Shown here: positions 885 through 63,982 of the stretch, piece after piece
Layout: every line of letters starts with the position of its first letter
Position numbering within the stretch: position 1 is the stretch's first letter
From: Eledone cirrhosa
Lineage: Eukaryota
Assembly (NCBI GenBank): GCA_964016885.1
Contig: OZ024743.1
Coordinates: 108,004,001 to 108,068,000 of the forward strand
Reading direction: 5' to 3'
DNA length: 64,000 bases
Notes under the pieces: model-generated
The model's input: only the letters and a program-made list of their open reading frames with translations
Told to the model about the DNA's origin: nothing
Databases searched by the model: none
Made by a program: the position numbers and the translations under genes

Positions 885-952
<68 letters not shown>

Positions 953-956
<4 letters not shown>

Positions 957-1090
957 AACAAGTAAGTCCCCGACGGCTGAGCTCAAGCGGTTTCGACGGC
1001 TAATTCTGGAATTAGCCGTCGAAACGGCTTGAGTTCAGCCGTCGGGGTCTTACTTGTTCCTATTACCCACTCTACTACCCTAAGTATTGA
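953..1090 (+). mobile_element. Family A PLE-like hairpin, copy 1 (tail truncated)
   Basis: Palindrome 953-1062 with 2-nt loop at 1007-1008. Contains HHR 3' half GAAACGGC..GCCGTC GGGG. Tail TTACCCACTCTACTACCCTAAGTATTGA is shared with copies at 16771, 17928, 62944 and 63791. Confidence 0.8.
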
Positions 1091-16445: not shown

Positions 16446-16696
16446 TCCCAAATTAAATTAAGGGTGTCATGTCCGAGAGACATGCGCCAGCCATATCCAC
16501 TGTAGAATATGTTCAAAGTTTCCAATGAATTGATCCGAGCATTTTATATCAACTAGAAATTCATTGACATATAAATATATATAAAATAAACATATGAAAC
16601 AATCACATATGTATAAAAATTAAGTCTAGTTATACAATTGAAGAATACATACATATATTAATATATATGAACACATACGCACGCACACACACACAT

Positions 16697-16770
<74 letters not shown>

Positions 16771-16772
<2 letters not shown>

Positions 16773-17352
16773 CGAAGGAGTTGTGGTAAGGAACCAGATG
16801 GACCATAACGCACCAGAGTACTCAATACTTAGGGTAGTAGAGAGGGTAATATGATAAATTATGACCCCGACGGCAGAGCTCAAGCCGTTTCAACGGCTAT
16901 TTCTGGACTAAAGTAAGAGTTTTTTTAGTCTGGTAAATAAATAGCCGAACTTTTCAAAGGGTACTTTCTTATTTGGGAAGATTCTAGTTGTCAAGGGGTT
17001 TGGTCAAAATTTGTAGCAGACACAGAAAAGTCTATCATGGCAGTGGGTGCGGGGCGGGGGTGGCTGAACTTGCCTGTAGAACGATAGGGGTGTGGGTAGA
17101 GCCGGTCAATTCTAAGGTATGTGTATGAAAGTAGGCCAGAGAGGTAGGCGAAAACAGGTTTCTTTAGAAAAAGGAGGAGGGACGTTATAGAATTGGTAAA
17201 TCAAATTTTGATAACTACAATCTACCCATATAAGGAAGTACACCTTGAAAAGTTCGGCTATTTATTTACCAGACTAAAAAAACTCTTACTTTAGTCCAGA
17301 AATAGCCGCCGAAACGGCTTGAGCTCTGCCGTCGGGGTCATACTTTCTCATA
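16771..17352 (-). mobile_element. Family A PLE-like element, copy 2 (longest; two complete HHRs)
   Basis: Inverted arms at about 16849-16994 and 17209-17352 with a ~215-nt spacer. Tail 16771-16848. (TA)n on both sides. Confidence 0.85.
17236..17347 (+). ncRNA. Type I hammerhead ribozyme, U3-A8 variant with extended helix II (mirror copy at about 16855-16968, minus strand)
   Basis: Helix I AAGTA-CACC/GGGG-tca-TACTT. Core TTGAAAA 17245-17251. Helix II CGGCTATTT/AAATAGCCG with inner GACTAAA/TTTAGTC. GAAA 17311-17314. Helix III ACGGC/GCCGT. GUC triplet 17331-17333. Confidence 0.75.
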
Positions 17353-17371
17353 TATATATATAAATAAATAA

Positions 17372-17441
<70 letters not shown>

Positions 17442-17792
17442 ATATATTAATATATGTATGTATTGTTCAATTGTATAACTTAGTCTTAATTTTTGTACAT
17501 ATGTCTCGGGGAGGCGAGACGATTTACGGCCAACATCTTGTTCTGATTTTAATGCAAAACATGAAAAATGATGCCAAATGTTATGTGCTTGTCACGAACA
17601 AGCAAACATTAGATGTTAAACCAAAAAGGACGTTGACAACACCAATATTCCTTTTAGTTGCTTTAAATAATATTATTGTAGTTCTTGTTTTGTCAACAAG
17701 GTTAATTTTCCGTTTCTATTTTCAACCGTATGACAGATTATTATTGTATTATATTAATCTCCAATGTAGCGTTTTCCATGTATAGCATATAC

Positions 17793-17927: not shown

Positions 17928-18084
17928 AACAAAGGAATTGTTGTAAGGAACCAGATGGACCATAACGCACCAGAGTACTCAATACTTAGGGTAGTAGAGT
18001 GGGAAATAGGAAAAGGTATGACCCCGACGGGAGAGCTCCGTCGAAACGGCTTGAGCTCTGCCGCCGGGGTCATACTTTTTCCTG
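17928..18084 (-). mobile_element. Family A PLE-like hairpin, copy 3
   Basis: Same 78-nt tail as the other copies. Arms join at the GAGCTC of loop III. (TA)n on both flanks. Confidence 0.85.
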
Positions 18085-62907: not shown

Positions 62908-62943
<36 letters not shown>

Positions 62944-62947
<4 letters not shown>

Positions 62948-63131
62948 AACCAGTAAGACCCCGACAGCTGAGCTCAAGCCGTTTCGACGGCTAATTCTCA
63001 GAATTAGCCGTCGAAACGGCTTGAGCTCAGCTGTCGGGGTCTTACTGGTTCCTATTACCCACTCTACTACCTCAAGTATTGAGTACTTTGGTGCGTTATG
63101 GTCCACCTGGTTCCTTACCACATTTCCTTCG

Positions 63132-63133
<2 letters not shown>
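62944..63133 (+). mobile_element. Family A PLE-like hairpin, copy 4
   Basis: Perfect palindrome 62944-63054 centred on 62999. Tail 63055-63133. (TA)n on both sides. Confidence 0.88.
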
Positions 63134-63696: not shown

Positions 63697-63790
63697 TATA
63701 TATATATATATATATTCATATATACAAACATACAGAAATATATATATATATATATACATATATATACATATATCTATATATATATGTATA

Positions 63791-63982
63791 TAGGAGAAAG
63801 TATGAACCCGACGGCAGAGCTCAAGCCGTTTCGACGGCTATTTCTGGAGTAAATAGCCGTCGAAACGGGTTGAGCTCTTCCGTCGGGGTCATACTTGCTC
63901 CTATTCCCCACTCTACTACCCCAAGTATTGAGTACTCTGGTGCGTTATGGTCCATCTGGTTCCTTACCACAACTCCTTCGTT
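63791..63982 (+). mobile_element. Family A PLE-like hairpin, copy 5
   Basis: Palindrome 63791-63903 with loop 63844-63850. Tail to 63982. (TA)n on both sides. Confidence 0.88.

What the first reader, a model, noticed from the sequence alone, without database searches (positions are those of the whole stretch)
17236..17347. Complete hammerhead with U3-A8 covariation, branched/extended helix II and palindromic loop III
Seen: the core is UUGAAAA instead of CUGANGA. Helix II is a 9-bp stem capped by a second 7-bp hairpin, helix III is 5 bp with a loop containing self-complementary GAGCUC, helix I is bulged, and the triplet is GUC. Known: C3-G8 is a tertiary pair and U3-A8 is a tolerated compensatory variant; PLE HHRs usually have a vestigial helix III. 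Inference: this is an atypical, possibly monomer-active HHR that standard CUGANGA searches would miss.
Basis: partly seen in the sequence, partly recalled or inferred. Interest (0 to 1): 0.8.

Follow-up and report, generated by a model that had tools for sequence, protein, structure and literature searches.

The report
Long-armed hammerhead in Penelope-like retrotransposon
This is a worn copy of a hammerhead-ribozyme motif that sits in the end repeat of a very abundant jumping gene; intact copies elsewhere in the genome likely still cut their own RNA, while this copy is predicted to misfold.

Summary
The motif is real and lies in the terminal repeat of a Hydra-clade Penelope-like retrotransposon with over 40,000 fragments in this genome and intact 717-aa tandem copies. 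The window holds a 5'-truncated, internally inverted fragment (16772-17353) in (TA)n.

Across 11 subfamilies the 12 catalytic positions never change, N7 takes all four bases, and helix II shows three compensatory changes. Rfam misses it. U3-A8 cores in these elements are in print (Cervera 2014), and this scan found them before in two other genomes. Less usual are the ~100-nt size and the 5-6 bp helix III.

The 3-8 pair has a traceable history: C3-G8/U3-G8 (oldest), U3-A8, an unpaired C3-A8 stage that still made 1,993 copies, then U3-A8 again in the youngest elements. So covariation holds only over deep history.

This copy has two private changes and is predicted to misfold (10 kcal/mol), whereas the intact element folds as a hammerhead at minimum energy. 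Cleavage and expression are untested. Insertions come from uncleaved RNA. Verdict: new variant of a known kind, moderate interest.

The parts
16772..17353 (.). 5'-truncated, internally inverted fragment of a Hydra-clade Penelope-like element, inserted in (TA)n
   Evidence: the same UTR follows an RT + GIY-YIG ORF in L031, L032, L114
16772..17206 (-). long arm: 3' UTR, second hammerhead copy and tail; ends at the distal reverse-transcription start, 97 nt past C17
16772..16848 (-). tail of about 77 nt, present on this arm only
   Evidence: 42,845 exact genome matches to a tail 21-mer
16849..16973 (-). second hammerhead copy (U3 16957, G12 16891, C17 16869); core intact, no broken proximal pair, fold 3.6 kcal/mol above the ensemble
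17208..17353 (+). short arm, ending at the proximal reverse-transcription start about 17 nt past C17
17240..17244 (+). helix I, 5' strand; private change at 17242 breaks one pair
17245..17251 (+). core U3 U4 G5 A6 N7 A8 A9
17252..17310 (+). helix II arm: G10.1-C11.1, 2x1 loop, 9-bp stem, 8x3 loop, 7-bp hairpin; private change at 17309
17311..17314 (+). G12 A13 A14 A15.1
17314..17332 (+). helix III, 5 bp, with 9-nt loop holding the palindrome GAGCUC (17321-17326)
17333..17333 (+). C17 of the GUC triplet, predicted cleavage site on its 3' side
   Evidence: position by hammerhead numbering, cleavage not tested
17334..17350 (+). helix I 3' strand, bulge and distal pairing

Best explanation
The motif is a decayed copy of a type I hammerhead in the terminal repeat of an abundant Hydra-clade Penelope-like retrotransposon; in intact tandem elements it likely cuts the RNA after GUC, while this copy is predicted to misfold. 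Shown: the parent element, the position in the repeat, the anatomy, the conservation pattern and the helix II covariation. Inferred: in a read-through transcript of tandem units, the cut would free a unit RNA whose 5' end lies 190 nt ahead of the next ORF's first ATG. Helix III (5-6 bp) is long enough to form in a monomer, perhaps helped by the element's protein. Cleavage at the RNA's 3' repeat must be slow or blocked, because reverse transcription starts 17 or 97 nt downstream of the site and usually runs through it. The core pair likely went C3-G8, U3-G8, U3-A8, C3-A8, U3-A8 along the master lineage, which suggests catalysis is favoured by selection but not required for every burst of copying.
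For: Parent: intact 717-aa ORF in 3,531-nt tandem units with RWR, DKT, CxCx5C, YIG, CxxC and CxH motifs, as defined for Hydra by Craig 2021. The motif is the only hammerhead-like hit in the unit, sense strand, near the 3' end; no canonical minimal hammerhead is present. Over 11 subfamily majorities: 12 of 12 catalytic positions invariant, N7 in all four states, apical region 9 of 36 invariant; oldest versus youngest differ at 0 of those 12 but 22 of 36 apical positions. Helix II has 3 of 10 pairs changed on both sides; cells with double changes 34 versus 18.4 +/- 2.8 shuffled, 0 of 500. Canonical CUGAGGA cores exist in the oldest subfamily: C3 in 9 of 37 G8 copies versus 0 of 100 listed A8 copies. 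The ORF tree places the C3-A8 copies between two U3-A8 groups and rejects one U3 clade. The youngest intact copy has the hammerhead as its minimum-energy fold.
Against: No cleavage or expression data. 1,993 copies carry unpaired C3-A8 and older masters carried U3-G8. Helices I and III show no double-sided change; two of five whole-structure measures do not beat shuffles (415/500 and 471/500), and the three helix II changes lie on one old-to-young transition. RNAalifold on the same alignment predicts a different, core-sequestering fold, which also wins in the M, CGC, TGC and Y2 majorities. The tail is also well conserved (56 of 80), so conservation alone does not prove catalysis. Only 7 of 91 tail-bearing arms reach the whole core. 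In the anole element hammerhead mutants did not affect insertion in vitro. No loop-loop contact between helices I and II was identified.
Confidence: 0.6

Rival explanations
1. It cleaves only as a dimer, two RNAs or two tandem units pairing through helix III and its GAGCUC palindrome, as proposed for most animal Penelope-like hammerheads.
For: GAGCUC is invariant in 11 of 11 subfamily majorities while the other 3 loop bases vary. The helix III duplex scores -26.9 kcal/mol against -6.5 per monomer hairpin. Intact elements are tandem. Dimer action is the published model.
Against: Helix III is 5-6 bp and forms with probability 0.73-0.95 in the W, W3, W2, O and Y majorities. Tandem copies are 3.5 kb apart. 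GAGCU can also pair with A9-G10.1 and the next bases, another reason for it to be kept.
Confidence: 0.2
2. It is a catalytically dead or negligible hammerhead relic, kept as a structural handle for the RT-endonuclease next to its two start sites.
For: Large bursts with C3-A8 and U3-G8 cores. Templates are uncleaved. The tail is similarly conserved. Insertion did not need cleavage in the anole element.
Against: The invariant set is exactly the catalytic set and N7 is free. A Watson-Crick 3-8 pair appears to have been regained in O2, in the W lineage and in the youngest lineage.
Confidence: 0.17
3. It is a chance resemblance produced by hairpin-rich repeat DNA.
For: No Rfam hammerhead match. The descriptor also hit 2 of 52 random loci.
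Against: 0 of 1,000 shuffles; the expected place in a Penelope-like repeat; canonical cores in the oldest subfamily; compensatory changes.
Confidence: 0.03

Closest known systems
U3-A8 minimal hammerheads of Cercyon Penelope-like elements, Schistosoma mansoni (Cervera & de la Pena 2014, PMC4209133; parts 1-2 of 4 read)
   Same: Type I, in the pLTR, U3-A8 core (about 1,300 hits there), G10.1-C11.1, longer than usual helix II, palindromic loop III, pairs of motifs on opposite strands 100-700 bp apart.
   Different: Those have little or no helix III and a 7-8 bp helix II. Here helix III is 5-6 bp with a 7-9 nt loop, the helix II arm is 59 nt, and the odd bases lie after G10.1 rather than before it.
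Hammerheads of Hydra-clade Penelope-like elements (Craig et al. 2021, PMC8557442; passages and supplementary files S1 and S2 read)
   Same: Same clade by protein motifs, same 3' position, (TA)n targets, 5'-truncated inverted copies, tail on one end.
   Different: All 26 Hydra rows of file S2 have CUGANGA, stem III of 3-4 bp with loop 1-3 nt and loop 2 of 3-10 nt. None has U3-A8 or this size. The tail here is about 80 nt against the usual 30-40.
Hammerhead of anole Poseidon PAc (Frangieh et al. 2024, PMC11167929; parts 1-2 of 4 read)
   Same: Two internal reverse-transcription starts that define the tail; AT-rich targets; uncleaved RNA is the template.
   Different: PAc has C3-G8 and its ORF starts inside helix II. 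Here the first ATG is 190 nt past the site, and both starts sit on a short TAT match to the (TA)n target, whereas PAc starts were described as non-homologous.
Natural U3-A8 hammerheads (Perreault et al. 2011, PMC3088659; passages read)
   Same: C3-G8 to U3-A8 exchange, stated there to be active in vitro.
   Different: The passages seen give end states only, not a dated series of intermediates in one lineage.

Membership tests
Hammerhead ribozyme, type I | Three helices around the core, helix I open | tested here: met
   met for the family and the intact copy, helix I damaged in the window copy
Hammerhead ribozyme, type I | U4 G5 A6, A9, G12 A13 A14, A15.1-U16.1, H17, G10.1-C11.1 | tested here: met
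   12 of 12 invariant in 11 subfamily majorities; present in the window copy
Hammerhead ribozyme, type I | Watson-Crick pair between positions 3 and 8 | tested here: met
   U3-A8 in this copy and 5,763 of 7,793 younger copies; not met in 1,993 C3-A8 copies
Hammerhead ribozyme, type I | Covariation supporting the helices | tested here: inconclusive
   helix II 3 double changes; helices I and III none; alternative consensus fold
Hammerhead ribozyme, type I | Loop or bulge contact between helices I and II | not tested
   no contact identified; apical and bulge sequences vary
Hammerhead ribozyme, type I | Site-specific self-cleavage | not testable with these tools
   needs an in vitro assay or end-mapping of RNA
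Rfam hammerhead models | Score at or above the gathering threshold | tested here: not met
Penelope-like element, Hydra clade | One ORF with RT and C-terminal GIY-YIG | tested here: met
   Pfam GIY-YIG only weak (E 0.018) and no Pfam hit on the whole ORF
Penelope-like element, Hydra clade | RWK-type motif, DKT, CxCx5C linker, CxxC and CxH around E and N | tested here: met
   RWR 37, DKT 117, CxCx5C 572, CxxC 670, CxH 698 against definitions
Penelope-like element, Hydra clade | (TA)n targets, tandem and inverted 5'-truncated copies, tail | tested here: met
   (69 of 91 arms have an inverted short arm directly 5')
Penelope-like element, Hydra clade | Placement in an RT tree with reference clades | not tested
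   reference proteins were seen only as supplement text; likeness judged by eye
Non-LTR retrozyme | Short non-coding tandem units each with a hammerhead | tested here: not met
   tandem unit is 3,531 nt and coding; definition

The most novel reading that the evidence does not exclude
One transposon lineage records a ribozyme's catalytic-core pair being lost and regained several times (C3-G8, U3-G8, U3-A8 twice, C3-A8, U3-A8), together with helix II breaking and being repaired. The C3-A8 stage may have stayed active through a slipped core in which C3 pairs with G7: 94 of 100 listed C3-A8 copies have G7, against 53 of 100 listed U3-A8 copies. This natural allelic series would be the first in vivo-selected test of how much hammerhead activity a Penelope-like element needs.
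Probability: 0.3. Interest if true: 0.65.

Novelty: new variant of a known kind. Interest (0 to 1): 0.42.

Why it matters
Why Penelope-like elements keep hammerheads is open: measured activity is low and insertion in vitro did not need it. This family offers intact, very young tandem elements, a hammerhead predicted to fold as a monomer, and natural core variants in a datable order, so activity can be set against copy number. It also shows that CUGANGA descriptors and Rfam models miss a motif with nearly 8,000 copies in one genome. The window copy itself is an ordinary decayed fragment.

Tried and rejected
Expression: no RNA holder listed. Contigs of five of the six listed runs, none on record as RNA, were laid on the intact motif; contigs cannot show ends or levels, so I draw nothing from the depth profiles.

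Genomic footprint of cleavage: 9 of the 34 arms ending between -29 and +53 end within 5 nt of the site, against 4.5 expected (p 0.03). The window was chosen after seeing the data, ends are fuzzy and microhomology explains several, so it is not used.

Rooting with a sister family at about 50% protein identity gave 35% support and was dropped; the root is my choice, on the most diverged copies. A short tree on the motif alone suggested U3 arising twice from C3; the ORF tree did not bear out that order.

A coding role for the tail was considered because the frame is open 67 codons upstream of the ATG in the youngest copy; by eye the W majority has a stop in that frame, so it was rejected. MITE or DNA-transposon reading of the inverted arms rejected: arms are unequal, vary in length and continue into an RT ORF.

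Sister Hydra families: my descriptor found no candidate in 12 of 12 UTRs scanned; one decayed candidate was seen by eye. Majority of the TGC group was distorted by my G8-targeted sampling and left out. Pfam scan of window ORFs failed on a frame error and was not repeated.

Papers not held: Lunse 2017, Przybilski & Hammann 2007, Nelson & Uhlenbeck 2008. Lunse 2017 may already list similar variants, and the size of the C3-A8 and U3-G8 defects is recalled, not read. Supplements of Cervera 2014 were not opened and may bear on novelty.

Full report
OBSERVATION. The anatomy is in the sequence: UUGAAAA at 17245-17251, G10.1-C11.1, a 9-bp helix II topped by a 7-bp hairpin, GAAA at 17311, a 5-bp helix III with GAGCUC in its loop, and GUC with C17 at 17333. 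The stretch folds better than 200 of 200 shuffles (z -4.2). Helix II is a single long arm, not branched. Rfam gives no hammerhead match at gathering score or at E up to 10.

CONTEXT. The motif is in the short arm (17208-17353) of an inverted repeat whose other arm (16772-17206, minus strand) carries a second copy plus a tail of about 77 nt; both ends run into (TA)n. Four shorter fragments lie elsewhere in the window. In genome copies the same UTR follows an RT and GIY-YIG ORF. Intact 717-aa copies stand in head-to-tail arrays of 3,531 nt. Their motifs fit the Hydra clade of Penelope-like elements as defined by Craig et al. 2021. Exact matches number 42,845 for a tail 21-mer, 55,036 for a helix II/III 21-mer and 7,793 for the 5' half of the core in the younger context. 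My strict descriptor hits the intact unit once, on the sense strand, 190 nt upstream of the next ATG, and 0 of 1,000 shuffles; a relaxed canonical descriptor finds nothing else in the unit.

HOW COPIES ARE MADE. Arms end mostly 16-18 nt (83 of 200 distinct arms) or 96-97 nt (71 of 200) past C17, on a TAT match to the target. This fits the two-start tail model of Frangieh et al.. Of 91 tail-bearing arms from the first 90 tail loci on contig C1, 48 stop 31-50 nt upstream of the site, in the 3' strand of helix II; 7 reach the whole core; 69 have an inverted short arm directly 5'. Most templates were therefore uncleaved, and most copies hold only half the ribozyme.

CONSERVATION. I collected 211 distinct core-complete arms and sorted them into 12 groups. 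Sampling was deliberately enriched for rare cores, so proportions come from the genome-wide counts, not from this set. Across 11 group majorities (TGC left out as distorted), U4 G5 A6 A9 G10.1 C11.1 G12 A13 A14 A15.1 U16.1 C17 never change, N7 takes all four bases, and the apical part is invariant at 9 of 36 positions. The four C-G pairs of helix I are constant; in W2 an extra C shifts the fifth pair. GAGCUC is invariant. The tail is also conserved, 56 of 80, which weakens the argument from conservation alone.

COVARIATION. On 36 of the 211 arms, picked as closest to their majorities, 87% of cells pair; helix II has 3 pairs changed on both sides, and double-changed cells number 34 against 18.4 +/- 2.8 (0 of 500 shuffles). 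Pairs with double changes (5 against 5.4) and further pair types (19 against 20.2) do not beat the shuffles, and helices I and III show no double change. The three helix II changes fall on one old-to-young transition; group M shows two of them half done. RNAalifold predicts another fold for the same alignment, with the core paired to the cleavage site and a hairpin over CGAA.

THE 3-8 PAIR. Younger context: C3-G8 12, C3-A8 1,993, U3-A8 5,763, U3-G8 25, controls 0. G8 is at background level on both (Fisher p 0.35), so there is no covariation here. Older context: 37 copies with G8, of which 9 have C3 (canonical CUGAGGA) and 28 U3; 347 with A8, of which 100 of 100 listed have U3 (p 3e-6, but this reflects few events). 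Median divergence from the majority falls from 0.09-0.11 in the O and M groups to 0.011 in Y. A tree of 47 ORF 3' ends, independent of the motif columns, is a ladder: O, M (U3-G8), W3/W/W2 (U3-A8), CGT/CGC (C3-A8; support 100/98), then the youngest U3-A8. One U3 clade is rejected (p-AU 3e-45). Caveats: I named the group; 4 rows were left out; the root is my choice by age, since an outside root was unsupported; only one M and one O2 row are in the tree; recombination between ORF and repeat was not tested. That C3-G8 came first is inferred from the canonical core in 26 of 26 published Hydra rows.

FOLDING. The hammerhead-competent ensemble lies 0.8 kcal/mol above the free ensemble in the intact Y copy, where it is also the minimum-energy structure; 1.6-2.9 in O1, O2, W3, W, W2, CGT and Y2; 4.0-6.8 in CGC, TGC and M; and 10.1 in the window copy. 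The window copy differs from its subfamily at 17242 and 17309. Core and proximal pairs are intact in 9 of 10 Y arms and 18 of 54 W arms. Helix III can also form a strong duplex through its palindrome. These are nearest-neighbour predictions without tertiary contacts.

MECHANISM. Most likely the hammerhead cuts tandem read-through RNA at the upstream repeat, giving a unit RNA that begins 190 nt before the ORF, while the downstream repeat stays uncut long enough to be copied; the competing fold or protein binding could provide that delay. All of this is inferred. Rivals are dimer-only cleavage and a non-catalytic relic.

WHAT IS KNOWN. Hammerheads in these repeats, the U3-A8 core and palindromic loop III are in Cervera & de la Pena 2014 (parts 1-2 of 4); natural U3-A8 in Perreault 2011 (passages); Hydra hammerheads in Craig 2021 (passages and files S1, S2). 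I also saw passages of PMC6765202, PMC7151607 and PMC3884650 and part 1 of 5 of the 2026 retrozyme preprint. Searches for U3-A8, G8A with C3U, Hydra or cephalopod hammerheads and compensatory change across subfamilies showed no report of this size variant or of such a series, but Lunse 2017 could not be read. Two earlier notes of this scan describe U3-A8 Penelope hammerheads in other genomes; none covers this genome or sequence.

VERDICT. A genuine hammerhead descendant in a known setting, a new structural variant, with an unusually well recorded history of its core pair. The copy flagged is decayed. Interest 0.42.

Noticed in passing
window 952-1090, 17928-18083, 62943-63133, 63790-63982: Four more inverted fragments of the same element family, from at least three subfamilies, each cut off in or after the 3' strand of helix II.
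   Followed up: partly
window 16604-16670 and 17440-17506: The flanks beyond the microsatellites are themselves inverted copies of about 65 unique bases (about 90% alike), so the element sits in the (TA)n centre of an older palindromic element.
   Followed up: no
window 6843, 15721, 24585, 29775, 32158, 35839, 46139, 51133, 61165, 61355: About ten copies of a ~190-nt repeat with a tRNA-like head (A- and B-box-like by eye), probably a SINE; ARAGORN finds no tRNA.
   Followed up: no
L185-L274, 31-50 nt upstream of C17: Strong hot spot of 5' truncation and inversion in the 3' strand of helix II (48 of 91 arms); may be a reverse-transcriptase stall or an RNA end.
   Followed up: partly
L046 about 900-960 nt past the ORF end; L056, L064, L073, L082, L019: Sister Hydra families at 40-55% protein identity. 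L046 shows by eye a decayed hammerhead with a 5-bp helix III and 7-nt loop, so long helix III may be common in this genome.
   Followed up: no
L114 about 1140-1160; window about 17070-17095 minus strand: A pyrimidine tract ending in CAG about 80 nt upstream of the hammerhead looks like a 3' splice site; introns are known in such repeats.
   Followed up: no
L114 1225-1234: A 10-nt palindrome just upstream of helix I is kept in most subfamilies, and its 3' half pairs with the bases at the proximal reverse-transcription start.
   Followed up: no
L031 56-400: A separate GIY-YIG ORF fragment (Pfam E 5e-8) of another Penelope-like family lies next to the element.
   Followed up: no
L050 and L068: Two unrelated descriptor hits in random loci, one with a canonical CUGAUGA core.
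   Followed up: no
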